Shown here: positions 19,232 through 64,000 of the stretch, piece by piece
How the letters are laid out: each line of letters begins with the position of its first letter
Numbering within the stretch: position 1 is the first letter of the stretch
From: Escherichia coli
GTDB lineage: Bacteria; Pseudomonadota; Gammaproteobacteria; Enterobacterales; Enterobacteriaceae
Assembly (NCBI RefSeq): GCF_044324875.1
Contig: NZ_CP172185.1
Length of the DNA: 64,000 nucleotides
Strand: one strand, 5' to 3'
Program-made: the position numbers and the translations under genes
Notes under the pieces: model-generated
Told to the model about the DNA's origin: nothing
The model's input: the letters and a program-made list of their open reading frames with translations, nothing else
Database searches by the model: none

Positions 19232-20533
19232 ATGGCTCAGGAAATCGAATTAAAGTTTATTGTTAATCACAGTGCCGTTGAGGCGTTGCGTGACCATCTC
19301 AATACGCTGGGCGGCGAGCACCATGACCCCGTGCAGTTGTTGAATATTTACTACGAAACGCCGGATAACTGGCTGCGTGGGCACGACATGGGCTTGCGTA
19401 TTCGTGGCGAAAACGGTCGCTATGAGATGACCATGAAAGTTGCAGGAAGAGTGACAGGCGGCTTACACCAGCGCCCGGAATATAACGTGGCGTTGAGCGA
19501 ACCGACGCTCGACCTGGCGCAGTTACCGACGGAAGTCTGGCCGAACGGCGAATTGCCTGCCGATCTCGCTTCCCGCGTACAACCGCTGTTCAGCACCGAT
19601 TTTTATCGCGAAAAGTGGCTGGTAGAGGTTGATGGTAGCCAAATTGAAATCGCCCTCGACCAGGGGGAAGTGAAAGCAGGTGAATTTGCTGAACCTATCT
19701 GCGAGCTGGAACTGGAACTGCTTAGCGGCGACACGCGCGCGGTGCTGAAACTGGCGAACCAACTGGTATCGCAAACCGGATTACGCCAGGGCAGCCTGAG
19801 CAAAGCGGCGCGTGGCTATCATCTGGCGCAGGGCAATCCGGCGCGTGAAATCAAACCGACCACCATTTTGCATGTTGCGGCAAAAGCCGATGTGGAACAG
19901 GGGCTGGAAGCGGCGTTCGAGCTGGCGTTAGCGCAATGGCAGTATCATGAAGAACTGTGGGTACGCGGCAACGATGCGGCGAAAGAACAGGTGCTGGCAG
20001 CCATTAGCCTGGTCCGTCATACGCTGATGCTGTTCGGTGGTATTGTGCCGCGTAAAGCGAGCACTCACTTACGTGATTTGCTGACCCAATGCGAAGCGAC
20101 CATTGCTTCTGCGGTTTCTGCCGTGACGGCGGTCTACTCTACCGAAACGGCAATGGCGAAGCTGGCGTTGACCGAATGGTTGGTAAGCAAAGCATGGCAG
20201 CCATTTTTAGATGCCAAAGCGCAGGGCAAAATCAGCGATTCCTTCAAACGCTTTGCCGATATCCATCTTTCCCGCCATGCCGCGGAACTGAAAAGCGTTT
20301 TCTGCCAGCCGTTAGGCGATCGCTACCATGACCAGTTGCCACGCCTGACGCGTGATATTGATTCGATATTGTTGCTGGCGGGTTACTACGATCCTGTCGT
20401 GGCGCAAGCCTGGCTGGAGAACTGGCAGGGGCTGCGTCACGCTATTACGACTGGGCAACGCATTGAAATTGAACATTTCCGTAATGAGGCAAACAATCAG
20501 GAACCGTTCTGGTTGCACAGCGGAAAACGTTAA
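19232..20533 (+). CDS. ygiF: Inorganic triphosphatase (CYTH domain fused to CHAD domain)
   Basis: 433-aa ORF; N-terminal EIELKF CYTH signature. Confidence 0.9.
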
Positions 20534-20555
20534 TCAGGCAAGGATAAAATCGCTT

Positions 20556-23396
20556 ATGAAGCCGCTCTCTTCACCGTTACAGCAGTACTGGCAGACCGTT
20601 GTTGAGCGGCTGCCAGAGCCTTTAGCCGAGGAATCACTTAGCGCACAGGCGAAGTCAGTACTTACTTTCAGTGATTTTGTGCAGGACAGCGTGATTGCGC
20701 ATCCAGAGTGGCTGACGGAACTGGAAAGCCAACCGCCGCAGGCCGACGAATGGCAGCATTACTCTGCATGGTGGCAGGAGGCGCTCAGTAATGTGAGTGA
20801 CGAAGCCGGGTTAATGCGCGAGCTGCGGCTATTCCGGCGGCGCATTATGGTGCGCATCGCCTGGGCGCAAACGCTGGCATTGGTTACTGAAGAGAGCATT
20901 TTGCAGCAGCTCAGCCATCTGGCGGAGACGCTGATTGTTGCGGCGCGTGACTGGCTGTATGACGCCTGCTGCCGCGAATGGGGAACGCCGTGCAATGCGC
21001 AGGGCGAAGCGCAACCGCTGCTGATTTTAGGCATGGGTAAGCTGGGCGGAGGGGAACTGAATTTCTCCTCAGATATCGATCTGATTTTTGCCTGGCCGGA
21101 ACATGGTTGTACGCAGGGTGGACGCCGGGAACTGGATAACGCCCAGTTTTTTACCCGCATGGGGCAGCGGCTGATTAAAGTGCTGGATCAACCAACGCAG
21201 GATGGCTTCGTCTATCGCGTGGATATGCGACTGCGTCCGTTTGGCGAAAGTGGCCCGCTGGTGCTGAGCTTTGCGGCACTGGAAGATTATTACCAGGAGC
21301 AGGGGCGCGACTGGGAGCGTTACGCGATGGTCAAGGCGCGGATTATGGGCGATAGCGAAGGCGTCTATGCTAACGAGTTGCGTGCGATGCTGCGCCCGTT
21401 TGTTTTCCGTCGTTACATCGATTTCAGCGTGATTCAGTCGCTGCGCAACATGAAAGGGATGATTGCCCGTGAAGTGCGTCGGCGCGGTTTGACCGACAAT
21501 ATCAAACTTGGCGCGGGTGGCATTCGTGAAATTGAATTTATTGTCCAGGTATTCCAGCTCATTCGCGGCGGGCGCGAACCATCGCTGCAATCGCGCTCTT
21601 TACTGCCAACGCTCAGCGCCATTGCCGCGCTGCATCTGCTTTCTGAAAACGATGCTGAACAATTGCGAGTGGCGTATCTGTTCCTGCGGCGTCTGGAAAA
21701 CCTGCTGCAAAGTATTAACGACGAACAAACCCAGACGCTTCCTTCTGATGAGCTTAACTGTGCGCGGTTGGCGTGGGCGATGGACTTTGCTGACTGGCAG
21801 CAACTGACTGGGGCGCTGACCGGACATATGACCAATGTGCGCCGGGTGTTTAATGAATTGATTGGCGACGACGAAAGTGAAACTCAGGAAGAGTCGCTGT
21901 CGGAACAGTGGCGTGAGCTGTGGCAGGACGCGTTGCAGGAAGATGACACTACACCAGTGCTGGCGCATCTTAGCGAGGACGATCGCAAACAGGTGCTGAC
22001 GCTGATTGCCGATTTTCGCAAAGAGCTGGATAAGCGTACCATCGGGCCGCGCGGGCGTCAGGTGCTCGACCATCTGATGCCGCATCTGCTAAGTGATGTC
22101 TGTGCGCGTGAAGACGCTGCTGTCACGCTGTCGCGCATTACCGCCTTGCTGGTGGGGATTGTTACTCGCACCACTTATCTTGAGCTGCTTAGTGAATTCC
22201 CTGCGGCGCTTAAACATTTGATTTCTCTGTGTGCTGCATCGCCGATGATTGCCAGCCAGCTAGCGCGTTATCCATTATTGCTGGACGAACTGCTCGATCC
22301 AAATACCCTTTACCAACCAACGGCGACGGATGCCTACCGTGATGAACTGCGCCAGTATTTGCTGCGTGTGCCGGAAGATGACGAAGAACAACAGCTTGAG
22401 GCGCTGCGTCAGTTCAAACAGGCGCAACTGTTACGTATTGCGGCAGCGGATATCGCCGGTACGCTACCGGTAATGAAAGTGAGCGATCACTTAACCTGGC
22501 TGGCGGAGGCTATGATAGATGCCGTCGTTCAGCAGGCGTGGGTTCAAATGGTTGTCCGCTACGGTAAGCCAAATCACCTGAACGAACGCGAAGGGCGTGG
22601 TTTTGCGGTGGTCGGCTACGGCAAGCTGGGCGGCTGGGAGTTAGGCTACAGTTCCGATCTTGACCTGATCTTCCTCCATGATTGCCCAATGGATGCGATG
22701 ACTGACGGCGAGCGGGAAATCGACGGGCGACAGTTTTATCTGCGTCTGGCGCAACGCATTATGCATCTGTTCAGTACGCGAACCTCTTCCGGCATTTTGT
22801 ATGAAGTGGATGCTAGACTGCGTCCGTCCGGGGCGGCGGGAATGCTGGTTACCTCCGCAGAAGCGTTTGCCGATTATCAGAAAAACGAGGCCTGGACGTG
22901 GGAACATCAGGCGCTGGTGCGTGCGCGTGTAGTGTACGGCGATCCGCAGCTCACCGCGCACTTTGACGCAGTACGCCGGGAGATTATGACGCTGCCGCGC
23001 GAAGGCAAAACCCTGCAAACAGAAGTGCGGGAAATGCGCGAGAAAATGCGTGCCCATCTCGGCAATAAACATCGCGATCGCTTTGATATCAAAGCCGATG
23101 AAGGCGGAATTACCGATATCGAATTTATTACTCAATATCTGGTGTTGCGCTACGCTCATGAAAAACCGAAGTTAACGCGCTGGTCAGACAACGTGCGCAT
23201 TCTGGAACTACTGGCGCAAAACGACATTATGGAAGAGCAGGAAGCGATGGCGCTGACCCGTGCTTACACGACGCTGCGCGATGAACTTCATCATCTGGCA
23301 TTACAGGAATTGCCGGGCCATGTGTCGGAGGATTGCTTCACCGCAGAGCGTGAACTGGTGCGGGCAAGCTGGCAGAAGTGGCTGGTGGAAGAATGA
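20556..23396 (+). CDS. glnE: Glutamine synthetase adenylyltransferase / deadenylylase
   Basis: 946-aa protein from the ATG at 20556 ([12 protein letters not shown]...); two nucleotidyltransferase domains. The track ORF from 20352 is an upstream extension that overlaps ygiF. Confidence 0.95.
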
Positions 23397-23443
23397 AGTA
23401 TGGTATTATCGCGCGCAAATTTTGAATCTCTCAGGAGACAGGA

Positions 23444-24877
23444 ATGAAAGTAACGCTGCCAGAGTTTGAACGTGCAGGAGTGATGGTGGTTGGTGATGTG
23501 ATGCTGGATCGTTACTGGTACGGCCCCACCAGTCGTATCTCGCCGGAAGCGCCGGTGCCCGTGGTTAAAGTGAATACCATCGAAGAACGTCCGGGCGGCG
23601 CGGCTAACGTGGCGATGAATATCGCTTCTCTCGGTGCTAATGCACGCCTGGTCGGGTTGACGGGCATTGACGATGCAGCGCGCGCGCTGAGTAAATCTCT
23701 GGCCGACGTCAACGTCAAATGCGACTTCGTTTCTGTACCGACGCATCCGACCATCACCAAATTACGGGTACTTTCCCGCAACCAACAGCTGATCCGTCTG
23801 GATTTTGAAGAAGGTTTCGAAGGGGTTGATCCGCAGCCGCTGCACGAGCGGATTAATCAGGCGCTGAGTTCGATTGGCGCGCTGGTGCTCTCTGACTACG
23901 CGAAAGGTGCGCTGGCAAGCGTGCAGCAGATGATCCAACTGGCGCGTAAAGCGGGCGTTCCGGTGCTGATTGATCCAAAAGGCACCGATTTTGAGCGCTA
24001 CCGCGGCGCTACGCTGTTAACGCCGAATCTCTCGGAATTTGAAGCTGTTGTCGGTAAATGTAAGACCGAAGAAGAGATTGTTGAACGCGGCATGAAACTG
24101 ATTGCCGATTACGAACTCTCGGCTCTGTTAGTGACCCGTTCCGAACAGGGTATGTCGCTGCTGCAACCGGGCAAAACGCCGCTGCATATGCCAACTCAGG
24201 CGCAGGAAGTGTATGACGTTACCGGTGCGGGCGACACGGTGATTGGTGTCCTGGCGGCAACGCTGGCGGCGGGTAATTCGCTGGAAGAAGCCTGCTTCTT
24301 TGCTAATGCGGCGGCAGGCGTAGTGGTCGGCAAACTGGGGACATCCACGGTTTCGCCGATCGAGCTGGAAAACGCAGTACGTGGACGTGCAGATACCGGC
24401 TTTGGTGTGATGACCGAAGAGGAACTGAAGCTTGCTGTGGCGGCGGCGCGTAAACGCGGCGAAAAGGTGGTAATGACCAATGGCGTCTTTGACATCCTGC
24501 ACGCCGGGCACGTCTCTTATCTGGCAAATGCCCGTAAACTGGGTGACCGTTTGATTGTCGCCGTCAACAGCGATGCTTCCACCAAACGGCTGAAAGGGGA
24601 TTCCCGCCCCGTTAACCCTCTCGAGCAGCGTATGATTGTGCTGGGTGCACTGGAAGCGGTCGACTGGGTGGTGTCGTTTGAAGAAGACACGCCGCAGCGC
24701 CTGATCGCCGGGATCTTGCCAGACCTGCTGGTGAAAGGCGGCGACTATAAACCAGAAGAGATTGCCGGGAGTAAAGAAGTCTGGGCCAACGGTGGCGAAG
24801 TGTTGGTGCTCAACTTTGAAGACGGTTGCTCGACGACCAACATCATCAAGAAGATCCAACAGGATAAAAAAGGCTAA
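23444..24877 (+). CDS. hldE: Bifunctional D-glycero-beta-D-manno-heptose-7-phosphate kinase / heptose-1-phosphate adenylyltransferase
   Basis: 477-aa ORF with N-terminal ribokinase-like and C-terminal cytidylyltransferase-like domains; SD AGGAGA. Confidence 0.95.
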
Positions 24878-53474: not shown

Positions 53475-54130
53475 TTCTCACCTAATGTGTAGCCAATACC
53501 ATGAACGGTACGAATAAAATCACTGCCGAGTTTGCGTCGCAGATGATGCACATGCACTTCAACGGCATTACTGGTGACCTCTTCGTCCCAGGTATACAGT
53601 TTCTCTTCAATCAGTTTGCGCGGCAGTACCCGACCAGCGTTACGCATCAGTAATTCCAGCAGGGCAAATTCTTTTGGTTTCAGAGTTAAGGGTTCGCCAG
53701 CCAGCGTGGCGATACGTTTGCCGGGGTCGAGCATGACGTTACCGTGGCGCAGTTCGTTGCTGGCCTGGCCGTTGGTTCGGCGCATCAGAGCTTCCAGCCT
53801 GGCGGCGACTTCTATCAACGCAAAAGGTTTACACAGATAATCGTCAGCTCCCAGACGCAGCCCCTCTACACGTTCCGCTAACGCATCGCGCGCGGTCAGG
53901 ATCAGTACCGGCTCACGCTGACCTTTTTCTCGCCATTCGCGCAAAATATCGCGACCATCCATGCCTGGTAAGGTTAAATCCAGGATCACCGCATCATAAG
54001 GCGCACTATATAGCGCCTCTTTTCCCTGACGACCTTGTGTAAACCAGTCGACGCTAAAACCCATTTTACTAAGGCCCGTTTTGATGCCGTCGCCAATCAG
54101 CATGTCATCTTCTATCAGTAAAATTCGCAT
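53471..54130 (-). CDS. qseB: Two-component response regulator QseB (OmpR/PmrA family)
   Basis: 219-aa ORF with a receiver domain and winged-helix DNA-binding domain. Confidence 0.93.
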
Positions 54131-54215
54131 TTTTTCATCCCTGCGATAACCGTATTTGCTGCCAGTAAACCGTGTTGTAACGAGCTCTGTACAGCATTAA
54201 ATTTTATTTTTTTCC

Positions 54216-54247
54216 CTTAAGAAGTTGTTAAGGACTATCTTGTTAAA
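54216..54247 (+). promoter_or_regulatory. Direct repeats CTTAAG-N5-GTTAAG, plus a third GTTAA half-site, upstream of ygiW (PmrA/QseB-box-like)
   Basis: Hexamers at 54216 and 54227 are spaced one helical turn apart and resemble the PmrA-family box CTTAAT-N5-CTTAAT; they lie 35-65 bp upstream of the ygiW ATG in the qseB-ygiW divergent region. Confidence 0.45.
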
Positions 54248-54281
54248 TGCTCGGAAACAGACATTAAAGGGAGTAATAAAC

Positions 54282-54674
54282 ATGAAAAAATTCGCAGCAG
54301 TAATCGCAGTAATGGCCCTGTGCAGCGCACCGGTGATGGCAGCAGAGCAGGGCGGTTTTTCTGGCCCATCGGCAACGCAAAGTCAGGCCGGAGGATTCCA
54401 GGGGCCGAACGGCAGCGTAACGACCGTAGAAAGCGCAAAATCCCTGCGTGACGACACCTGGGTAACCCTGCGCGGCAATATCGTTGAACGCATCTCTGAC
54501 GATCTCTACGTGTTCAAAGATGCCAGCGGTACTATCAATGTTGATATCGACCACAAACGCTGGAACGGCGTGACGGTGACGCCGAAAGATACGGTTGAGA
54601 TTCAGGGTGAAGTCGATAAAGACTGGAATTCTGTTGAAATTGACGTCAAACAGATCCGCAAAGTAAATCCGTAA
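54282..54674 (+). CDS. ygiW: Periplasmic OB-fold (BOF family) stress protein
   Basis: 130-aa protein from the ATG at 54282 (SD AAAGGGAG) with signal peptide MKKFAAVIAVMALCSAPVMA. Confidence 0.88.
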   Translation: MKKFAAVIAVMALCSAPVMAAEQGGFSGPSATQSQAGGFQGPNGSVTTVESAKSLRDDTWVTLRGNIVERISDDLYVFKDASGTINVDIDHKRWNGVTVTPKDTVEIQGEVDKDWNSVEIDVKQIRKVNP

Positions 54675-54726
54675 TTGTTACCGCTCCCGGGACACATTCC
54701 CGGGAATAATTTCGCAGGGAGGCAAA

Positions 54727-55209
54727 ATGACAAACCTGACACTGGATGTAAATATTATCGATTTCCCATCAATCCCTGTGGCGATGTTGCCGCACCGCTG
54801 TAGCCCTGAGTTGCTCAACTACAGCGTGGCGAAATTTATCATGTGGCGTAAAGAGACGGGGCTTTCTCCTGTTAACCAAAGCCAGACTTTTGGCGTCGCC
54901 TGGGATGACCCTGCCACCACCGCACCGGAAGCGTTTCGCTTTGATATCTGCGGCAGCGTTAGCGAACCGATCCCCGATAATCGTTATGGTGTGAGTAATG
55001 GTGAACTTACCGGTGGACGTTATGCTGTGGCCCGCCATGTTGGCGAGCTGGACGATATTTCACACACGATATGGGGCATCATTCGCCACTGGCTACCTGC
55101 AAGCGGCGAGAAAATGCGTAAAGCACCGATTCTGTTTCACTACACCAATCTTGCCGAAGGGATGACAGAGCAGCGACTGGAAACAGATGTTTATGTGCCG
55201 TTGGCGTGA
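54727..55209 (+). CDS. ygiV: GyrI-like small-molecule-binding domain protein (AraC effector-domain type)
   Basis: 160-aa ORF with SD GGGAGG. Confidence 0.85.
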   Translation: MTNLTLDVNIIDFPSIPVAMLPHRCSPELLNYSVAKFIMWRKETGLSPVNQSQTFGVAWDDPATTAPEAFRFDICGSVSEPIPDNRYGVSNGELTGGRYAVARHVGELDDISHTIWGIIRHWLPASGEKMRKAPILFHYTNLAEGMTEQRLETDVYVPLA

Positions 55210-55754
55210 TGAAGAATCTTTACCGGAGTGTGAGCCAAATCACTCGCGATAAGTTTGAGCGAATAATGCCACAGGCGTATTGTTGTTGGGCTTATAATTT
55301 CTCCGGTAAGGAATACCATGTATACGCGAAATTTATTATCCGGTGCGCCGTAAGCCGTCTCGAGGGTACCCATGAGCAGGCCGCACTTATGGCAGGAGGC
55401 GCGGGGCACAGGTGGAGACACTGCTAAGCTGGGCTGAACCGTATACTTACAGACGACTACTTTGATGCTTTAGGCTTCCCTGGACTCGCATAACCTCAAC
55501 TTCTCGAATCGCCCGGTGCGGACCCGCATGCCGAGTGGTGTGGCATGGGCGCAACCTTGTGTTGCCCCCTATGCCGATCAAGTCTACAGCAAAGAGTTGT
55601 ATATCAAGACACATTGATGTCTTTATCGCCGTCGGAGCACGTCCGGCGGCGCTATTCACGCTGATCTCCTGTGACTCGACGCGGCAGATAATGTAGTATC
55701 TCCGGCAATATTGCCCCTTTGAAGGCTGGCGAATAAGTTGAGGAATCAGAATTA

Positions 55755-58013
55755 ATGAGCGATATGGCAGAGCGCCTTGCGCTACATGAATTTACGGAAA
55801 ACGCCTACTTAAACTACTCCATGTACGTGATCATGGACCGCGCGTTGCCGTTTATTGGTGATGGTCTGAAACCTGTTCAGCGCCGCATTGTGTATGCGAT
55901 GTCTGAGCTGGGCCTGAATGCCAGCGCCAAATTTAAAAAATCGGCCCGTACCGTCGGTGACGTACTGGGTAAATACCATCCGCACGGCGATAGCGCTTGT
56001 TATGAAGCGATGGTCCTGATGGCGCAGCCGTTCTCTTACCGTTATCCGCTGGTTGATGGTCAGGGGAACTGGGGCGCGCCGGACGATCCGAAATCGTTCG
56101 CAGCAATGCGTTACACCGAATCCCGGTTGTCGAAATATTCCGAGCTGCTATTGAGCGAGCTGGGGCAGGGGACGGCTGACTGGGTGCCAAACTTCGACGG
56201 CACTTTGCAGGAGCCGAAAATGCTACCTGCCCGTCTGCCAAACATTTTGCTTAACGGCACCACCGGTATTGCCGTCGGCATGGCGACCGATATTCCACCG
56301 CATAACCTGCGTGAAGTGGCTCAGGCGGCAATCGCATTAATCGACCAGCCGAAAACCACGCTCGACCAGCTGCTGGATATCGTGCAGGGGCCGGATTATC
56401 CGACTGAAGCGGAAATTATCACTTCGCGCGCCGAGATCCGTAAAATCTACGAGAACGGACGTGGTTCAGTGCGTATGCGCGCGGTTTGGAAGAAAGAAGA
56501 TGGCGCGGTGGTTATCAGCGCATTGCCGCATCAGGTTTCAGGTGCGCGCGTACTGGAGCAAATTGCTGCGCAAATGCGCAACAAAAAGCTGCCGATGGTT
56601 GACGATCTGCGCGATGAATCTGACCACGAGAACCCGACCCGTCTGGTGATTGTGCCGCGTTCCAACCGCGTGGATATGGATCAGGTGATGAACCACCTCT
56701 TCGCAACCACCGATCTGGAAAAGAGCTATCGTATTAACCTCAATATGATCGGTCTGGATGGTCGTCCGGCGGTGAAAAACCTGCTGGAAATCCTCTCCGA
56801 ATGGCTGGTGTTCCGCCGCGATACCGTGCGCCGCCGACTGAACTATCGTCTGGAGAAAGTCCTCAAGCGCCTGCATATCCTCGAAGGTTTGCTGGTGGCG
56901 TTTCTCAATATCGACGAAGTGATTGAGATCATTCGTAATGAAGATGAACCGAAACCGGCGCTGATGTCGCGGTTTGGCCTTACGGAAACCCAGGCGGAAG
57001 CGATCCTCGAACTGAAACTGCGTCATCTTGCCAAACTGGAAGAGATGAAGATTCGCGGTGAGCAGAGTGAGCTGGAAAAAGAGCGCGACCAGTTGCAGGG
57101 CATTTTGGCTTCCGAGCGTAAAATGAATAACCTGCTGAAGAAAGAACTGCAGGCAGACGCGCAAGCCTACGGTGACGAACGTCGTTCGCCGTTGCAGGAA
57201 CGCGAAGAAGCGAAAGCGATGAGCGAGCACGACATGCTGCCGTCTGAACCTGTCACCATTGTGCTGTCGCAGATGGGCTGGGTACGCAGCGCTAAAGGCC
57301 ATGATATCGACGCGCCGGGCCTGAATTATAAAGCGGGCGATAGCTTCAAAGCGGCGGTGAAAGGTAAGAGCAACCAACCGGTAGTGTTTGTTGATTCCAC
57401 CGGTCGTAGCTATGCCATCGACCCGATTACGCTGCCGTCGGCGCGTGGTCAGGGCGAGCCGCTCACCGGCAAATTAACGTTGCCGCCTGGAGCGACCGTT
57501 GACCATATGCTGATGGAAAGCGACGATCAGAAACTGCTGATGGCTTCCGATGCGGGTTACGGTTTCGTCTGCACCTTTAACGATCTGGTAGCGCGTAACC
57601 GTGCAGGTAAGGCTTTGATCACCTTACCGGAAAATGCCCATGTTATGCCGCCGGTGGTGATTGAAGATGCTTCCGATATGCTGCTGGCAATCACTCAGGT
57701 AGGCCGTATGTTGATGTTCCCGGTAAGCGATCTGCCGCAGCTGTCGAAGGGCAAAGGCAACAAGATTATCAACATTCCATCGGCAGAAGCCGCGCGTGGA
57801 GAAGATGGTCTGGCGCAACTGTACGTTCTGCCGCCGCAAAGCACGCTGACCATTCATGTTGGGAAACGCAAAATTAAACTGCGTCCGGAAGAGCTACAGA
57901 AAGTCACTGGCGAACGTGGACGCCGCGGTACGTTGATGCGCGGTTTGCAGCGTATCGATCGTGTTGAGATCGACTCTCCTCGCCGTGCCAGCAGCGGTGA
58001 TAGCGAAGAGTAA
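55755..58013 (+). CDS. parC: DNA topoisomerase IV subunit A
   Basis: 752-aa ORF with the active-site region ...AAMRYTE... Confidence 0.97.
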
Positions 58014-58246
58014 TATGCCGGGGAGGGCGCTGTTTCCTCCCGCTTGCAAGGAACGCCGGATGAAACGTTAAGTCGTCATCCGGCAGCGTATTCAACCCCC
58101 GGAAACGATAAAAATTCCCTTGAAACCGTTGTTTATTCATGCGTTGCGATTAACAATACGCTTTTCCAGAGAGCGGCTTTTAACAATGCCCTAACCTGAT
58201 TTCAGGTGACGTACAATGCCAGTCTCTCAGACCTTCAGAGGGTGTT

Positions 58247-58984
58247 ATGCTATATATCTTTCGTCTTATTATTACCGTGATTTACAGCATCTTAGTCTGT
58301 GTATTCGGCTCCATTTACTGCCTTTTCAGCCCGCGTAACCCGAAACATGTGGCCACCTTTGGGCATATGTTTGGCCGTCTTGCGCCGCTTTTCGGCCTGA
58401 AAGTGGAGTGCCGCAAACCTGCAGACGCTGAAAGCTACGGCAATGCTATCTATATCGCTAACCACCAGAACAACTATGACATGGTGACAGCATCGAACAT
58501 TGTGCAACCGCCGACGGTGACGGTGGGGAAAAAGAGCTTGCTGTGGATCCCCTTCTTCGGGCAGTTGTACTGGTTAACCGGCAACCTATTGATCGACAGA
58601 AACAATCGCACTAAAGCTCACGGCACTATTGCGGAAGTCGTGAATCACTTCAAAAAACGCCGTATTTCCATCTGGATGTTCCCGGAAGGTACCCGCAGCC
58701 GTGGTCGCGGCCTGCTACCGTTCAAGACCGGGGCATTTCACGCGGCAATTGCGGCGGGCGTCCCGATTATTCCCGTGTGCGTCTCTACAACTTCGAATAA
58801 GATTAATCTTAATCGACTGCACAACGGTCTGGTGATTGTCGAAATGTTGCCGCCAATTGACGTCAGTCAGTATGGCAAAGATCAGGTTCGCGAGTTGGCT
58901 GCCCATTGTCGTTCGATAATGGAACAAAAAATCGCTGAGCTCGATAAAGAAGTCGCAGAGCGCGAAGCCGCCGGAAAAGTTTAA
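58247..58984 (+). CDS. plsC: 1-acyl-sn-glycerol-3-phosphate acyltransferase
   Basis: 245-aa ORF with the NHQN acyltransferase motif (HX4D type) and FPEGTR. Confidence 0.93.
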   Translation: MLYIFRLIITVIYSILVCVFGSIYCLFSPRNPKHVATFGHMFGRLAPLFGLKVECRKPADAESYGNAIYIANHQNNYDMVTASNIVQPPTVTVGKKSLLWIPFFGQLYWLTGNLLIDRNNRTKAHGTIAEVVNHFKKRRISIWMFPEGTRSRGRGLLPFKTGAFHAAIAAGVPIIPVCVSTTSNKINLNRLHNGLVIVEMLPPIDVSQYGKDQVRELAAHCRSIMEQKIAELDKEVAEREAAGKV

Positions 58985-59058
58985 GTCGGCAATCTGTATT
59001 TTTGCGGGGAACACTTTCCTGCACGGTATTACTTTAGCCAGTTTTACATGGAGCAAAT

Positions 59059-60471
59059 ATGTCACTCAGTCGGCGTCAGTTCATTCAGGCATCGGGGATT
59101 GCACTTTGTGCAGGCGCTGTTCCCCTGAAGGCCAGCGCAGCCGGGCAACAGCAACCGCTACCCGTTCCGCCGCTGCTTGAATCTCGCCGTGGGCAACCGC
59201 TGTTTATGACTGTACAACGTGCGCACTGGTCATTTACGCCAGGGACACGCGCGTCGGTTTGGGGAATCAATGGTCGTTACCTGGGGCCGACTATCCGCGT
59301 CTGGAAGGGCGACGATGTTAAGCTTATTTACAGCAACCGCCTGACAGAAAATGTCTCAATGACGGTGGCCGGGCTACAGGTACCTGGCCCGCTGATGGGC
59401 GGTCCGGCACGGATGATGTCGCCAAACGCTGACTGGGCACCCGTACTGCCTATTCGCCAGAACGCAGCTACTCTGTGGTATCACGCCAATACTCCCAACC
59501 GCACGGCTCAGCAGGTCTATAACGGCCTTGCCGGAATGTGGCTGGTGGAAGATGAAGTCAGCAAGTCGCTGCCTATCCCCAACCATTATGGTGTGGATGA
59601 TTTTCCGGTCATTATTCAGGATAAACGGCTGGATAACTTTGGTACGCCAGAATACAACGAACCGGGAAGCGGCGGCTTTGTTGGTGATACGCTGCTGGTT
59701 AACGGTGTACAAAGCCCGTACGTTGAAGTCTCGCGTGGCTGGGTGCGCTTGCGTCTGTTGAACGCGTCGAACTCTCGTCGCTATCAACTACAGATGAGCG
59801 ATGGTCGCCCGTTACATGTGATTTCTGGCGATCAGGGATTCCTGCCCGCTCCTGTATCGGTGAAGCAACTTTCGCTGGCACCGGGCGAGCGTCGTGAGAT
59901 TCTGGTGGATATGAGCAACGGTGATGAAGTGTCGATCACCTGTGGCGAAGCGGCGAGCATTGTTGATCGTATTCGTGGCTTCTTTGAGCCATCCAGCATT
60001 CTGGTTTCTACGCTGGTGCTAACGCTGCGCCCAACCGGCCTTCTGCCGCTGGTCACAGACAGTCTTCCGATGCGCTTGCTGCCAACTGAAATCATGGCTG
60101 GTTCGCCGATTCGCAGTCGTGATATCAGTCTGGGTGATGACCCGGGTATTAATGGACAACTGTGGGACGTTAACCGTATTGATGTCACCGCGCAGCAAGG
60201 AACGTGGGAACGCTGGACGGTACGCGCGGACGAGCCGCAAGCGTTCCATATTGAAGGTGTGATGTTCCAGATCCGTAACGTGAATGGCGCGATGCCGTTC
60301 CCGGAAGACAGAGGCTGGAAAGATACCGTTTGGGTTGACGGACAAGTGGAGCTGCTTGTTTATTTCGGTCAGCCTTCCTGGGCGCACTTCCCGTTCTACT
60401 TCAACAGTCAGACGCTGGAAATGGCGGACCGTGGCTCGATAGGGCAACTGTTGGTCAATCCGGTACCGTAA
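59059..60471 (+). CDS. ftsP: Tat-exported cell-division protein FtsP (multicopper-oxidase fold)
   Basis: 470-aa ORF with twin-arginine signal MSLSRRQFIQASGIALCAGAVPLKASA. Confidence 0.93.
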   Translation: MSLSRRQFIQASGIALCAGAVPLKASAAGQQQPLPVPPLLESRRGQPLFMTVQRAHWSFTPGTRASVWGINGRYLGPTIRVWKGDDVKLIYSNRLTENVSMTVAGLQVPGPLMGGPARMMSPNADWAPVLPIRQNAATLWYHANTPNRTAQQVYNGLAGMWLVEDEVSKSLPIPNHYGVDDFPVIIQDKRLDNFGTPEYNEPGSGGFVGDTLLVNGVQSPYVEVSRGWVRLRLLNASNSRRYQLQMSDGRPLHVISGDQGFLPAPVSVKQLSLAPGERREILVDMSNGDEVSITCGEAASIVDRIRGFFEPSSILVSTLVLTLRPTGLLPLVTDSLPMRLLPTEIMAGSPIRSRDISLGDDPGINGQLWDVNRIDVTAQQGTWERWTVRADEPQAFHIEGVMFQIRNVNGAMPFPEDRGWKDTVWVDGQVELLVYFGQPSWAHFPFYFNSQTLEMADRGSIGQLLVNPVP

Positions 60472-60581
60472 TCTTCATACTCGCCCGAGGAGGGCGAGTA
60501 TGGAATACCTTTCGATTTCTCTTTCGTTCCGGCTTATAATCCCCGGCCTTTGATTATTTTTTTATCATTTCTGGAAGCAAA

Positions 60582-62801
60582 ATGAGCTCTATCTCCCTGA
60601 TCCAACCGGATCGCGACCTGTTCTCCTGGCCGCAGTACTGGGCCGCCTGTTTTGGACCGGCACCGTTTTTGCCGATGTCTCGTGAAGAGATGGATCAACT
60701 TGGCTGGGATAGCTGCGACATCATTTTGGTTACTGGCGACGCGTATGTCGATCACCCAAGCTTCGGGATGGCGATTTGCGGTCGTATGCTGGAAGCGCAG
60801 GGCTTTCGTGTCGGGATCATTGCCCAACCGGACTGGAGCAGCAAAGACGACTTTATGCGTCTGGGTAAACCGAATCTGTTTTTCGGTGTTACTGCTGGCA
60901 ACATGGACTCGATGATCAACCGCTATACCGCCGATCGCCGTTTACGTCATGACGATGCCTACACACCGGATAACGTCGCGGGTAAGCGCCCGGATCGCGC
61001 CACGCTAGTTTATACCCAGCGTTGTAAAGAGGCGTGGAAAGATGTGCCGGTGATCCTCGGCGGTATTGAGGCTAGTCTGCGCCGTACCGCGCATTATGAT
61101 TACTGGTCCGATACCGTGCGCCGTTCCGTGCTGGTGGATTCGAAAGCCGACATGCTGATGTTCGGTAACGGTGAGCGTCCGCTGGTGGAAGTGGCGCATC
61201 GTCTGGCGATGGGCGAGCCGATTAGTGAAATCCGCGATGTGCGTAATACCGCGATTATCGTAAAAGAGGCGTTGCCAGGCTGGAGCGGTGTGGATTCCAC
61301 CCGTCTTGATACCCCAGGGAAAATCGACCCAATCCCGCATCCGTATGGCGAAGATTTGCCCTGTGCGGATAACAAACCGGTGGCCCCGAAAAAGCAGGAA
61401 GCCAAAGCCGTAACCGTGCAGCCGCCGCGCCCGAAACCGTGGGAAAAAACCTACGTATTGCTGCCTTCTTTCGAGAAAGTGAAGGGCGATAAAGTGCTGT
61501 ACGCCCATGCTTCGCGTATTCTGCACCACGAAACCAACCCTGGCTGCGCCCGCGCATTGATGCAAAAACACGGCGACCGCTATGTGTGGATCAACCCGCC
61601 TGCTATCCCGCTTTCTACCGAAGAGATGGACAGCGTTTTTGCGCTGCCGTACAAGCGCGTGCCGCATCCGGCCTATGGCAATGCTCGTATTCCGGCTTAC
61701 GAAATGATCCGTTTCTCGGTCAACATTATGCGTGGCTGCTTTGGTGGCTGTTCTTTCTGTTCTATTACCGAGCATGAAGGGCGCATTATTCAGAGCCGTT
61801 CGGAAGATTCGATCATCAATGAGATCGAAGCGATCCGCGACACCGTTCCAGGTTTTACGGGCGTAATTTCCGATCTCGGTGGGCCAACTGCCAACATGTA
61901 TATGTTGCGCTGCAAATCGCCACGCGCTGAGCAAACCTGCCGTCGTTTGTCGTGCGTTTATCCGGATATTTGTCCGCACATGGACACGAACCACGAACCA
62001 ACGATCAACCTCTATCGCCGTGCGCGTGATCTGAAAGGCATTAAAAAGATCCTGATTGCCTCTGGTGTGCGTTATGACATCGCCGTGGAAGATCCGCGCT
62101 ATATCAAAGAACTGGCGACCCATCACGTCGGCGGTTATCTGAAGATTGCCCCGGAACATACCGAAGAAGGGCCGTTATCGAAGATGATGAAGCCGGGCAT
62201 GGGCAGCTATGATCGCTTTAAAGAGCTGTTCGATACCTACTCGAAACAGGCAGGTAAAGAGCAGTATTTGATCCCGTATTTCATCTCGGCACACCCCGGT
62301 ACGCGCGATGAAGATATGGTGAATCTGGCGCTGTGGCTGAAAAAGCACCGCTTCCGCCTCGACCAGGTACAGAACTTCTACCCGTCGCCGCTGGCTAACT
62401 CGACCACTATGTATTACACCGGCAAAAACCCGCTGGCGAAGATTGGTTATAAAAGTGAAGACGTCTTTGTACCGAAGGGCGACAAGCAGCGTCGCCTGCA
62501 TAAAGCGTTGTTGCGTTACCACGATCCGGCAAACTGGCCGTTAATCCGCCAGGCGCTAGAAGCGATGGGCAAAAAGCATCTGATTGGCAGCCGTCGCGAT
62601 TGCTTAGTGCCTGCGCCAACCATTGAAGAGATGCGTGAGGCTCGTCGCCAGAACCGCAATACCCGTCCGGCGTTGACTAAACATACGCCGATGGCGACCC
62701 AGCGTCAGACGCCTGCTACGGCAAAAAAAGCGTCGTCTACGCAATCTCGTCCGGTGAATGCTGGTGTGAAGAAACGCCCTAAAGCGGCGGTTGGACGTTA
62801 A
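60582..62801 (+). CDS. ygiQ: Radical SAM superfamily protein (UPF0313)
   Basis: 739-aa ORF with the Cys-rich radical SAM region CFGGCSFCS and a basic C-terminal tail. Confidence 0.9.
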
Positions 62802-62804
62802 AAA

Positions 62805-62842
62805 ATATCCCCGGTAACAGAATGCTACCGGGAATTTTTTTA
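62805..62842. terminator. Bidirectional rho-independent terminator between ygiQ and yqhH
   Basis: CCCGGTA / TACCGGG stem then AATTTTTTT. Confidence 0.8.
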
Positions 62843-63100
62843 TCATTCTGCGTACATACGCAAGCAGCGCAGGCAATCAAAATAGTCCTGAGCATCAAGA
62901 CGCGTATTGGCTCTGTTAGCGTCGGATTTGGCAGCATAGATTTGTGGGCGTAATGCTTTCATATCCTGCTCAAGCCGGGCGATTTTGGCATTTAATGTTT
63001 GCACATTGCTCGCCAGCTGATTGACCTTTTGCTCATTGACGCAGCCACTGAGCAAGCAGGTTGCCAGAACAACAGCTCCCACGGTGAAAATCGTTTTCAT
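62843..63100 (-). CDS. yqhH: Lpp-paralogue lipoprotein
   Basis: 85-aa ORF with signal peptide and lipobox LSGC followed by a coiled coil ([24 protein letters not shown]...). Confidence 0.85.
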
Positions 63101-63150
63101 ATAGTGTTCCCTTTTATTTATTGTTCCGGCTAATTGTTATTTAATTCAGC

Positions 63151-64000
63151 TCATTGCTTTAATCTGGCGGCGGTTTTTGCCTCAATTTGCTTAAGTAGGC
63201 TGCCGCTGTTCGGGCGGATAAAATCAGCGATTTCCCACTTACCTTCGCGCCGCTGTAAAATCAGTTCTTGCTCTTCGTTGTTGCCATTGGTCAGCGTAAA
63301 ACGAACATGAATGCGGGCGGAATCGGCGGTTTTCTCCAGGACACGGATTTCATCAACGCGTGAAAATAGCGACTCTTCGCCAAAACAGATCGGATTGTCG
63401 TAAATAAATTGCCGTTCTATTTGCATATCTTCATCGGGATTGTTGGCAGTCTTGAAGGTGGTTTTATAGAAGGCATTGACCGCCTGGCGGTAAGAGTCGG
63501 AAACCACCCACGTCCACGGCCAGCTATAATCAGCAATATGTTCAAAGAGTTCGGCAACAAAGGCTTCCGGCTGTTCTTTTTGCAACGAAGCTATAGCGGC
63601 CAGCGTTTTTTCATTCTCGCTATTAACTGCTTGTAAGACGCTGCCATGATTGCTGACAATATCGTCAATGACCCAACGACCATTTTCCGCCACCATTTTC
63701 AGTGTCTGTGTGGTCTTTTCTTTATCGTCTTTAAAGATACGAAAGCGCACAACGGCATCGGCATGATCGGCGTCAGGTTGGGTTATCGCTACGCTTTCTA
63801 ACACCAGATCGCCAAAATCCTGACAATCACAAACCGGATCATAATCCAGCCAGCCAATATTGCCCGGTAGTGTAAGATTATCGTTCAGGGTAAGCGCCTG
63901 TTGAATACGCGCTGAAGTTATCGCCCGCTCTCCGGTTTCACCGAAATAAGGCGTACTGGCATCTGATTTATAGTTCTGATAAATCTGCCGGACTGTTTGT
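63151..64000 (-). CDS. yqhG: DUF3828 protein, 5' end outside the window
   Basis: Minus-strand frame is open from the stop at 63151 to the window edge; the track ORF (63151-63804) starts at an internal GTG. Gene symbol from recalled synteny, upstream of yqhH. Confidence 0.7.
   Translation of the reverse strand, partial: QTVRQIYQNYKSDASTPYFGETGERAITSARIQQALTLNDNLTLPGNIGWLDYDPVCDCQDFGDLVLESVAITQPDADHADAVVRFRIFKDDKEKTTQTLKMVAENGRWVIDDIVSNHGSVLQAVNSENEKTLAAIASLQKEQPEAFVAELFEHIADYSWPWTWVVSDSYRQAVNAFYKTTFKTANNPDEDMQIERQFIYDNPICFGEESLFSRVDEIRVLEKTADSARIHVRFTLTNGNNEEQELILQRREGKWEIADFIRPNSGSLLKQIEAKTAARLKQ

What the first reader, a model, noticed from the sequence alone, without database searches (positions are those of the whole stretch)
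60582..62801. Large radical SAM protein YgiQ with no assigned reaction
A 739-aa radical SAM protein with a lysine/arginine-rich C-terminal tail is conserved core genome, but I am not aware of a defined substrate. The basic tail suggests nucleic-acid or ribosome association.
Basis: partly seen in the sequence, partly recalled or inferred. Interest (0 to 1): 0.2.

Follow-up and report, generated by a model that had tools for sequence, protein, structure and literature searches.

The report
Orphan radical SAM enzyme YgiQ
This is ygiQ, a well-known, near-universal E. coli gene for a large iron-sulfur "radical SAM" enzyme whose reaction is still unknown; its features point towards a role on RNA or the ribosome, but nothing here proves that.

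Summary
Window 60582-62801 (+) is a 739-aa ORF, the E. coli gene ygiQ. It scores 883 bits against NCBIfam TIGR03904 (cutoff 462) and is present in 5425 of 5426 complete E. coli genomes.

I found no assigned reaction in Pfam, NCBIfam (June 2026), RefSeq names, the PDB or the 29 held papers that mention it. Two apparent function claims are errors: "RsmJ encoded by ygiQ" is a typo for yhiQ, and a review's "YgiQ" P-methylase is Sden_1168.

New anatomy:
- The canonical CX3CX2C motif is invariant.
- A second, family-wide four-Cys insert (C-X2-9-C-X4-C-X5-C) lies inside the barrel and is probably a second metal cluster.
- The N-domain is Rossmann-like, resembling a cobalamin-binding domain.
- The basic disordered tail is conserved as a property across phyla, with RGG-type extensions of up to about 340 aa after DUF3362.
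- In Proteobacteria the tail contains a conserved linear motif (PALTKHT / LTQHTGLPPR).

The gene stands alone, with no conserved neighbours or riboswitch. Two studies find it co-expressed with ribosomal and RNA-modification genes. It also carries a strong RyhB pairing site over its SD and AUG.

Best reading, at moderate confidence: a two-cluster radical SAM enzyme that modifies RNA or a ribosome-bound target. It is a known orphan of modest interest.

The parts
60582..62801 (+). ygiQ coding sequence, 739 aa plus TAA stop
   Evidence: ORF list; RefSeq annotation of the 99%-identical locus; TIGR03904 at 883 bits
60666..61718 (+). N-terminal module (aa 29-379, Pfam Radical_SAM_N). It is a Rossmann-like domain resembling a cobalamin-binding domain, plus a linker sheet. 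It has no conserved Cys but many invariant or near-invariant polar residues: D46, D53, D57-H58-P59, D109-S110, R122, D125, R136-P137, Y144, G160-G161-x-E-A-S-x-R-R-x-x-H-x-D173 and E198.
   Evidence: Pfam; conservation in 81 and 66 diverse homologs; structural matches to cobalamin-binding and receiver-like domains; the Pfam B12-binding model matches only sub-threshold, 17.4 bits against 32.1
61308..61433 (+). Disordered Pro/Lys-rich insert (aa 243-284), mostly absent from the diverse (mainly non-proteobacterial) representatives
   Evidence: pLDDT below 50; alignment occupancy 0.07-0.18 across aa 241-280 in diverse representatives; most distant homologs match in two stretches that skip it
61719..62336 (+). 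Radical SAM core barrel (aa 380-585)
61737..61760 (+). Canonical radical SAM motif C386-x3-C390-x2-C393, the site for the [4Fe-4S] cluster and SAM
   Evidence: Direct reading; invariant in 81 of 81 diverse homologs
61911..61973 (+). Family-specific four-Cys insert C444-x8-C453-x4-C458-x5-C464, sitting after the GGPTAN strand. It is a probable second metal site (auxiliary Fe-S cluster or Zn).
   Evidence: Conservation of 88/96/98/99% by column; the first Cys shifts position, giving the motif C-x(2-9)-C-x4-C-x5-C. Present in 74 of 81 under a strict pattern and in 219 of 229 long homologs. It is an insertion relative to MgmA and RimO. pLDDT is 91-93. No known metal-binding module matches it.
62361..62744 (+). 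DUF3362 (aa 594-721): the last barrel strand motif ([20 protein letters not shown]) followed by short helices
   Evidence: Pfam; DSSP of the model; segment alignment
62622..62798 (+). Basic C-terminal tail (aa 681-739; net charge +12; disordered from aa 702)
   Evidence: Composition; pLDDT; family-wide charge conservation, with a mean last-40 net charge of +7.1 and 55 of 81 members at +6 or more, against +0.3 in the background
62667..62687 (+). Short linear motif PALTKHT (aa 696-702) inside the tail, conserved across Gamma-, Beta- and Alphaproteobacteria as hydrophobic-x-T-[KQR]-[HY]-x (for example LLTQHTGLPPR)
   Evidence: 32 of 48 proteobacterial tails carry it, against a mean of 0.21 and a maximum of 3 in 1000 shuffles
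60570..60593 (+). RyhB sRNA pairing site over the Shine-Dalgarno sequence and AUG (-12..+12). The 10-nt perfect complement CUGGAAGCAA is at 60571-60580.
   Evidence: Duplex of -24.8 kcal/mol with RyhB nt 37-61; 0 of 2000 dinucleotide shuffles reach it; best of 80 ORF starts in the window; exact in E. albertii. Ribo-seq lists ygiQ as RyhB-repressed (PMC4666370).
60535..60540 (+). Consensus TATAAT, a likely -10 box for ygiQ's own promoter
   Evidence: Direct reading; conserved upstream of ygiQ in E. albertii, Citrobacter, Enterobacter and Acerihabitans. The promoter scan did not call it because the -35 element is weak.
62800..62841 (.). Bidirectional intrinsic terminator (A-tract, GC stem-loop, T-tract) shared by the convergent genes ygiQ and yqhH
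   Evidence: Terminator scan; sequence; fold of -14.5 kcal/mol, z = -3.55

Best explanation
ygiQ encodes the archetype of the YgiQ/UPF0313 family, a stand-alone housekeeping radical SAM enzyme. Shown: it has the invariant CX3CX2C site that, in this superfamily, binds a [4Fe-4S] cluster and SAM to generate a 5'-deoxyadenosyl radical. Inferred: a family-specific four-Cys insert next to the SAM-binding strand carries a second metal centre, most likely an auxiliary Fe-S cluster. Shown: the N-terminal Rossmann-like domain, with its many conserved acidic, Arg and His residues, resembles the cobalamin-binding domains of class-B enzymes and the N-domains of methylthiotransferases. Inferred: the enzyme acts on a polyanionic macromolecule of the translation apparatus, either RNA or a protein held in an RNA-protein complex such as the ribosome. 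Its disordered, strongly basic tail would tether it there, and in Proteobacteria the tail also carries a conserved docking motif (PALTKHT / LTQHTGLPPR). The chemistry (C-methylation, sulfur insertion or something else) and the exact substrate remain unknown. Expression follows the growth-rate-coupled translation regulon, and under iron limitation RyhB shuts it off by pairing over the SD and AUG, as expected for a dispensable iron-consuming enzyme.
Against: There is no direct evidence of RNA or ribosome binding, and none of any modification. From my own knowledge, every known E. coli rRNA and tRNA modification already has an assigned enzyme, so there is no orphan modification waiting for YgiQ. 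A delta-ygiQ strain keeps m6A2030, and the gene is dispensable, since the Keio strain JW5501 exists. Basic disordered tails can also bind DNA, polyphosphate or acidic membranes. Co-expression with ribosomal genes is shared by many growth-rate-regulated genes that have nothing to do with translation. The four-Cys site could be structural zinc. Most of the closest folds act on small molecules (TsrM, TokK, CysS, AprD4, OxsB).
Confidence: 0.45

Rival explanations
1. YgiQ is a cobalamin-dependent (class-B-like) radical SAM methylase. Its N-domain would bind cobalamin and the enzyme would C-methylate an unactivated carbon. Because ordinary laboratory media lack B12, the product would have gone unnoticed.
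Against: PF02310 scores 17.4 bits against a cutoff of 32.1. The loop reads D57-H58-P-S-F-G rather than the canonical DxHxxG (direct reading). All class-B family models score far below their cutoffs, for example 27 against 360 and 19 against 575. AprD4 has the same domain and is cobalamin-independent (its PDB title says dehydratase; cofactor status from my own knowledge). None of the loci scanned has a cobalamin riboswitch. Identity to these enzymes is only 9-18%.
Confidence: 0.2
2. YgiQ is a sulfur-inserting enzyme of the LipA / MiaB / RimO kind. The Cys insert would hold an auxiliary [4Fe-4S] cluster that donates or carries sulfur to a substrate radical.
Against: All four Cys are conserved, which suggests a fully ligated cluster with no open iron site. 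The motif lies inside the barrel rather than in an N-terminal domain. The N-domain has no conserved Cys, and there is no TRAM domain. Methylthiotransferase models score 26 bits against a cutoff of 251. From my own knowledge, no orphan thiolated product is known in E. coli.
Confidence: 0.12
3. YgiQ acts on a small molecule, lipid or cofactor, and the basic tail merely localises it to the membrane, to polyphosphate or to DNA.
For: Most structurally similar enzymes are natural-product or small-molecule enzymes. In E. coli the gene lies next to plsC and ftsP. No RNA modification is missing an enzyme (my own knowledge).
Against: The plsC-ftsP neighbourhood is confined to Enterobacterales, and no neighbour recurs elsewhere, which is unusual for a pathway enzyme. 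RGG/RDG-rich extensions and the co-expression data point to RNA rather than lipid.
Confidence: 0.18
4. The protein has a documented function already, as RsmJ or as a P-methylase, so the finding is moot.
For: PMC5577257 states that RsmJ is encoded by ygiQ. PMC8950095 lists YgiQ among characterised cobalamin-dependent methylases.
Against: From my own knowledge, RsmJ is YhiQ, a small class-I methyltransferase, and no such family matches this protein. The review's reference 24 is the Shewanella denitrificans enzyme Sden_1168, whose family model NF038361 scores 18.9 bits against a cutoff of 575 here. NCBIfam release 20 (June 2026) and RefSeq still use 'YgiQ family radical SAM protein'.
Confidence: 0.03

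Closest known systems
YgiQ / UPF0313 family (NCBIfam TIGR03904; Pfam PF08497 + PF04055 + PF11842)
   Same: It is a full-length member, in fact the namesake: 883 bits against a cutoff of 462, with the same three-part architecture.
   Different: Nothing differs in sequence or architecture. The window's allele is from a divergent E. coli lineage and is 99% identical in protein sequence to the main E. coli cluster. The family itself has no known function.
MgmA / QCMT, the cobalamin-dependent radical SAM glutamine C-methyltransferase of methyl-coenzyme M reductase (PDB 9ccb)
   Different: Identity is only 14-18%. TIGR04014 scores 27 bits against a cutoff of 360. MgmA lacks the four-Cys insert (22 residues where YgiQ has 46 profile positions), the extended N-module, DUF3362 and the basic tail. 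Whether YgiQ binds cobalamin is untested.
Methylthiotransferases RimO / MiaB / MtaB
   Different: YgiQ has no conserved Cys in its N-domain (no UPF0004 cluster) and no TRAM domain. Its second Cys cluster lies inside the barrel and has four Cys. Family models score far below cutoff.
Other class-B or B12-domain radical SAM enzymes (TsrM, TokK, CysS, OxsB, and the cobalamin-independent AprD4)
   Different: These are small-molecule enzymes encoded in biosynthetic clusters, whereas ygiQ stands alone. Identity is 9-16%, and the Pfam B12-binding model is not matched at threshold.
Sden_1168 P-methyltransferase (NF038361), called 'YgiQ' in one review
   Same: Both fall under the catch-all COG1032, which is named 'radical SAM superfamily enzyme YgiQ'.
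   Different: It is a different family: 18.9 bits against a cutoff of 575, matching only around the CxxxCxxC region.

Membership tests
Radical SAM superfamily | CX3CX2C motif that ligates the [4Fe-4S] cluster | tested here: met
   C386, C390 and C393 are invariant in 81 of 81 diverse homologs
Radical SAM superfamily | Pfam PF04055 at or above its gathering score, and a partial TIM-barrel fold | tested here: met
Radical SAM superfamily | Reductive cleavage of SAM to the 5'-deoxyadenosyl radical | not testable with these tools
   Needs anaerobic biochemistry
YgiQ / UPF0313 family (TIGR03904) | Equivalog HMM score above the curated cutoff | tested here: met
   883.5 bits against 462.35, covering profile positions 1-557 of 558
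YgiQ / UPF0313 family (TIGR03904) | Architecture Radical_SAM_N + Radical_SAM + DUF3362 | tested here: met
   All three Pfam domains are above their cutoffs
Class-B cobalamin-dependent radical SAM methyltransferases | N-terminal cobalamin-binding domain recognised by PF02310 | tested here: not met
   17.4 bits against a gathering score of 32.1, and no stretch passes on its own. The fold similarity is nonetheless real.
Class-B cobalamin-dependent radical SAM methyltransferases | Membership of a characterised class-B family model (MgmA TIGR04014, Sden_1168 NF038361, HpnR, HpnJ and others) | tested here: not met
   15-27 bits against cutoffs of 251-650, matching only around the Cys motif
Class-B cobalamin-dependent radical SAM methyltransferases | Bound cobalamin and SAH co-product | not testable with these tools
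   Needs cofactor analysis and turnover assays
Methylthiotransferases (MiaB / RimO / MtaB) | N-terminal UPF0004 domain with three conserved Cys for the auxiliary cluster | tested here: not met
   No Cys in aa 1-379 is conserved: C23, C45, C66, C148, C261 and C322 are each Cys in no more than 16% of homologs
Methylthiotransferases (MiaB / RimO / MtaB) | C-terminal TRAM domain and a family HMM above cutoff | tested here: not met
   No TRAM hit. The C-terminus is helical. TIGR00089 scores 25.9 bits against 251.
Lipoyl synthase-type auxiliary cluster | CX4CX5C motif N-terminal to the radical SAM motif, plus a C-terminal Ser ligand (from my own knowledge) | tested here: inconclusive
   The CX4CX5C spacing is present (C453, C458, C464), but it lies C-terminal to CX3CX2C and comes with a fourth conserved Cys. 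No LipA family hit appears. Only generic barrel similarity to LIAS is seen, at E of about 4e-3.
RsmJ (16S rRNA m2G1516 methyltransferase), claimed in PMC5577257 | Class-I SAM methyltransferase family match | tested here: not met
   No such family appears in the Pfam or NCBIfam results. The claim is a typo for yhiQ (and my own knowledge).
RyhB regulon (iron-sparing targets) | Base-pairing site at the translation initiation region, and repression when RyhB is expressed | tested here: met
   A -24.8 kcal/mol duplex over -12..+12, reached by 0 of 2000 shuffles. Ribo-seq log2 repression of 1.04, p=0.024 (PMC4666370). Not validated with compensatory mutations.

The most novel reading that the evidence does not exclude
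YgiQ would found a new functional class of radical SAM enzymes: two-cluster enzymes with an in-barrel four-Cys auxiliary site. They would dock through an Arg/Lys-rich disordered tail and a short linear motif onto RNA or the ribosome, and would install a modification not yet detected. The modification may be conditional on anaerobiosis, iron sufficiency or cobalamin supply, which would explain why no orphan modification has been seen in standard cultures.
Probability: 0.3. Interest if true: 0.7.

Novelty: already known. Interest (0 to 1): 0.3.

Why it matters
From my own knowledge, YgiQ is one of the very few radical SAM enzymes of E. coli K-12 that still has no reaction. Its family is large and spans many bacterial phyla, with 1476 representative clusters at 50% identity scoring E<=1e-30. 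Assigning its reaction would annotate a very large number of genes and could reveal a new modification of RNA or the ribosome.

The features found here turn a vague orphan into a set of concrete experiments: a probable second metal site, a charge-conserved tail with a docking motif, iron-sparing control by RyhB, and a stand-alone gene. As a scan finding, though, it is a known unknown rather than a discovery.

Tried and rejected
1. **Published functions.** Both apparent assignments turned out to be misattributions: RsmJ is a typo for yhiQ, and the 'YgiQ' P-methylase is Sden_1168, probably via COG1032 naming. The Allen & Wang paper itself is not held.
2. **Literature under other identifiers.** UPF0313, DUF3362, PF08497, TIGR03904, b4469, JW5501, PA4928, PP_4872 and ygiR gave nothing functional. 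The second of these searches returned mostly noise.
3. **Guilt by neighbourhood.** Clustering the neighbours in 80 proteobacterial loci, plus 9 diverse contexts, gave no recurrent partner. My gene caller was crude and missed the ygiQ ORF in 11 loci.
4. **Domain fusions.** Ten unusually long homologs have no added Pfam domain, only low-complexity extensions.
5. **Riboswitches or cis-regulatory RNAs.** There are none near ygiQ in the window or in 20 loci.
6. **Defence-system role.** No PADLOC match.
7. **Cys insert and tail against Pfam and the PDB.** No meaningful match.
8. **Word-index homolog searches.** Both the single-sequence and the profile search were saturated by Enterobacterales and added little. 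The exhaustive representative search was the useful one.
9. **RyhB duplex folding.** An unrestricted fold paired the whole sRNA and was discarded in favour of a fold restricted to the RyhB core (then).
10. **Modelling DUF3362 alone.** Abandoned, because the folded part is only two or three short helices.
11. **Technical limits.** Model coordinates are not exposed, so Cys-Cys distances could not be measured. The afdb50 library was unavailable.
12. **Species of origin.** E. albertii was tested and rejected, at 90.7% DNA identity.
Full report
**Observation.** Window 60582-62801 (+) is an ATG-initiated ORF of 739 aa. It lies between ftsP (59059-60471, +) and the convergent lipoprotein gene yqhH (62843-63100, -). 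This is the arrangement annotated in the nearest complete genome, where the CDS is named 'YgiQ family radical SAM protein'. Pfam splits the protein into Radical_SAM_N (aa 29-379, E=3e-140), Radical_SAM (aa 380-585) and DUF3362 (aa 594-721). NCBIfam's equivalog model TIGR03904 scores 883.5 bits against a cutoff of 462. The region matches 5425 of 5426 complete E. coli genomes, so the gene is core. The last 59 residues hold 15 K/R, no D and 3 E, for a net charge of +12. Every factual element of the finding is confirmed.

None of the 29 held papers that contain 'YgiQ' has it in the title or abstract. Searches under the family's other identifiers added nothing functional. Two statements look like function assignments, and both are errors.
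- PMC5577257 says RsmJ is 'encoded by the ygiQ gene'. From my own knowledge RsmJ is YhiQ, a small class-I methyltransferase, and no such family matches this protein.
- PMC8950095 lists 'YgiQ' among characterised cobalamin-dependent methylases. Its reference is Allen & Wang's work on Shewanella denitrificans Sden_1168. That family model (NF038361) scores 18.9 bits against a cutoff of 575 on our protein. [quoted passage not shown]

All source names across phyla are simply 'YgiQ family radical SAM protein'. No structure of a relative is solved. The y-ome paper states that ygiQ's only annotation is superfamily membership. One caveat applies: the library holds only open-access papers and bioRxiv.

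**Anatomy.** The exhaustive representative search shows a large, deep family, with 6993 representatives at E<=1e-3 and 1476 at E<=1e-30. Named members come from Planctomycetota, Elusimicrobiota and Cloacimonadota as well as Proteobacteria. In 81 diverse full-length members:
- The radical SAM motif C386-x3-C390-x2-C393 is invariant.
- A second cysteine cluster is almost as well conserved: C444 in 88%, C453 in 96%, C458 in 98% and C464 in 99%.
- Inspection shows that members apparently lacking C444 simply have the first Cys closer in, so the family motif is C-x(2-9)-C-x4-C-x5-C. It is present in 74 of 81 under a strict pattern; three more have four Cys at other spacings and four are broken sequences. 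In a larger set it is present in 219 of 229 long homologs.
- Profile alignment to MgmA and RimO brackets this segment but does not cross it: MgmA has 22 residues where YgiQ has 46 profile positions, directly after the GGPTAN strand. It is therefore a YgiQ-specific insertion.
- The insert is modelled confidently (pLDDT 91-93) and matches no known metal-binding module.

I infer a second metal centre, most likely an auxiliary Fe-S cluster. Structural zinc cannot be excluded from sequence alone.

The N-terminal module has no conserved Cys but many near-invariant polar residues: D46, D53, D57-H58-P59, D109-S110, R122, D125, R136-P137, Y144, GGxEASxRRxxHxD (160-173) and E198.

All are at 9-18% identity, and Foldseek agrees. 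YgiQ therefore shares the architecture of a Rossmann-like N-domain plus a radical SAM barrel, as in class-B (cobalamin-domain) enzymes and methylthiotransferases, but it is a member of neither group. The Pfam B12-binding model is sub-threshold at 17.4 bits against 32.1. The loop after strand 1 reads DHPSFG rather than DxHxxG. There is no UPF0004 Cys triad and no TRAM domain, and all family models score far below their cutoffs. DUF3362 is the last barrel strand motif followed by two or three short helices.

**The tail.** Its sequence is not conserved across phyla, but its charge is. The last 40 residues of 81 diverse members have a mean net charge of +7.1 and 27% K+R, and 55 of 81 reach +6 or more. 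A crude background of 32 long ORFs from the window gives a mean of +0.3 and 3 of 32. Several members carry extensions of 150-340 aa after DUF3362. These have no Pfam domain and are 11-27% Arg (20-27% in most), with RGG, RDG or RRDGDRP-type repeats and net charges of +7 to +28. From general knowledge, this composition is typical of disordered RNA-binding tails.

Unexpectedly, the proteobacterial tails also hide a short linear motif: PALTKHT in Enterobacterales (window aa 696-702), (I/L)LTQHTGLPPR in Pseudomonas and Burkholderiales, FATKHTK in Vibrio, and FMTQHT in a Rhodospirillales MAG. It occurs in 32 of 48 tails, against a mean of 0.21 and a maximum of 3 in 1000 composition-preserving shuffles. 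Another clade carries GGYRP[HG]R instead. This argues for specific docking to a conserved partner, beyond electrostatic attraction.

**Context and regulation.**
- ygiQ appears to be its own transcription unit. A 13-bp hairpin (-23.5 kcal/mol) follows the ftsP stop. A consensus TATAAT at 60535-60540 is conserved in other Enterobacterales. A bidirectional intrinsic terminator at 62800-62841 is shared with yqhH.
- There is no conserved neighbourhood. The most recurrent neighbour family occurs in only 5 of about 69 proteobacterial loci, and nine contexts from other phyla share nothing.
- No Rfam element lies near ygiQ in the window or in 20 loci, and there is no defence-system match.
- Two independent expression analyses put ygiQ with the translation apparatus. 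It is the only y-gene in module M21, and it sits in a ribosomal-protein community that includes rlmN, trmA, trmD, truB, rimM, rbfA, queA, dusB and mnmG.
- Ribo-seq lists ygiQ as translationally repressed by the iron-sparing sRNA RyhB. I confirmed a pairing site in the window. RyhB nt 37-61 pair with ygiQ -12..+12: 10 perfect base pairs on CUGGAAGCAA over the SD, a 2x2 internal loop, then 5 bp over the AUG. The duplex is -24.8 kcal/mol, is reached by 0 of 2000 dinucleotide shuffles, and is the best of 80 ORF starts in the window. The site is exact in E. albertii, weaker in Citrobacter and Enterobacter, and absent in Yersinia.
- Weaker hints: YgiQ protein rises about 5-fold after gentamicin, together with IbpAB, RpoH, DeaD and YceA. 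A delta-ygiQ strain retains 23S m6A2030.

**Interpretation.** Shown: this is a bona fide radical SAM enzyme of the YgiQ family, with a conserved extra four-Cys site, a Rossmann-like N-domain and a charge-conserved disordered tail carrying a linear motif. It stands alone, is dispensable, is co-expressed with translation genes and is targeted by RyhB. Inferred, at about 0.45: it modifies RNA or a ribosome-bound target, with the tail acting as tether and dock. The chemistry is open. Rivals are a cobalamin-dependent C-methylase (about 0.2), a LipA/MiaB-like sulfur inserter (about 0.12), and a small-molecule or lipid enzyme with a localising tail (about 0.18). The main argument against the RNA reading is that, from my own knowledge, no E. 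coli RNA modification lacks an enzyme. A conditional modification, requiring anaerobiosis, iron or B12, would reconcile the two.

**Verdict.** The finding is real and correctly described, and it concerns a known orphan. Novelty: already known as an entity. Interest is modest (0.3), with some added value from the testable features documented here.

Noticed in passing
window 60570-60593: There is a strong RyhB sRNA pairing site over the ygiQ Shine-Dalgarno sequence and start codon, including the 10-nt perfect complement CUGGAAGCAA. The duplex is -24.8 kcal/mol and no shuffle out of 2000 reaches it. This matches published Ribo-seq repression of ygiQ.
   Followed up: yes
window 62667-62687 (aa 696-702): A conserved short linear motif (PALTKHT; LTQHTGLPPR in Pseudomonas and Burkholderiales) sits inside the otherwise variable, disordered basic tail. 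It occurs in 32 of 48 proteobacterial homologs against about 0.2 expected. Its partner is unknown.
   Followed up: yes
window 61911-61973 (aa 444-464): A family-wide four-Cys insert (C-x(2-9)-C-x4-C-x5-C) lies inside the radical SAM barrel. As far as I know, the databases annotate only one cluster for this family. Whether it binds Fe-S or Zn is undetermined.
   Followed up: yes
P0123, P0124, P0229, P0244 (C-terminal tails): A different tail motif, GGYRP[HG]R, recurs in four representatives; the cluster of one (P0124) includes a Thermoguttaceae (Planctomycetota) member. This suggests clade-specific docking motifs.
   Followed up: partly
window 60474-60504 and 60535-60540: A 13-bp GC-rich hairpin (-23.5 kcal/mol) with no T-tract follows the ftsP stop directly. 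It is followed by a consensus TATAAT that is conserved upstream of ygiQ in several Enterobacterales. Together they suggest that ygiQ has its own promoter.
   Followed up: partly
window 62800-62841: A bidirectional intrinsic terminator (A-tract, stem-loop, T-tract) is shared by the convergent genes ygiQ and yqhH. It starts within the ygiQ stop codon.
   Followed up: partly
window 61308-61433 (aa 243-284): A disordered Pro/Lys-rich insert in the N-module is mostly absent from the diverse representatives from other phyla. Its role is unknown.
   Followed up: partly
whole window (tested at 20000-24000 and 54000-64000): The window comes from a divergent E. coli lineage. Only 1-2 of 5426 complete genomes reach 99% identity or more, and nearly all lie at 95-99%. 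It is 99.0% identical to strain GN25 (night heron), 98.5-98.7% to the ST2747 strain records, and only 90.7% to E. albertii.
   Followed up: partly
literature (PMC5577257, PMC8950095, bioRxiv 10.1101/2024.09.16.613360): The name YgiQ is misapplied in print: 'RsmJ encoded by ygiQ' is a typo for yhiQ, 'YgiQ' is used for the Sden_1168 P-methylase, and COG1032 'YgiQ' is used for assorted B12-type radical SAM proteins in archaea. This is a trap for automated annotation.
   Followed up: yes
L009 and L018 (Acerihabitans arboris): This species carries two ygiQ paralogs (80% and 81% identical to the query) on different contigs. The second has a variant tail motif (ALTRFT).
   Followed up: no
L003 5721-5942; L094 641-1648: There are anecdotal RNA-related neighbours in distant taxa: a cold-shock-domain gene 58 bp upstream of one homolog, and a dihydrouridine synthase gene near another. 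Neither is recurrent.
   Followed up: no
window 62843-63100 (-): yqhH encodes an 85-aa lipoprotein with a lipobox (LLSGC) and looks like an Lpp paralog. It is convergent with ygiQ.
   Followed up: no
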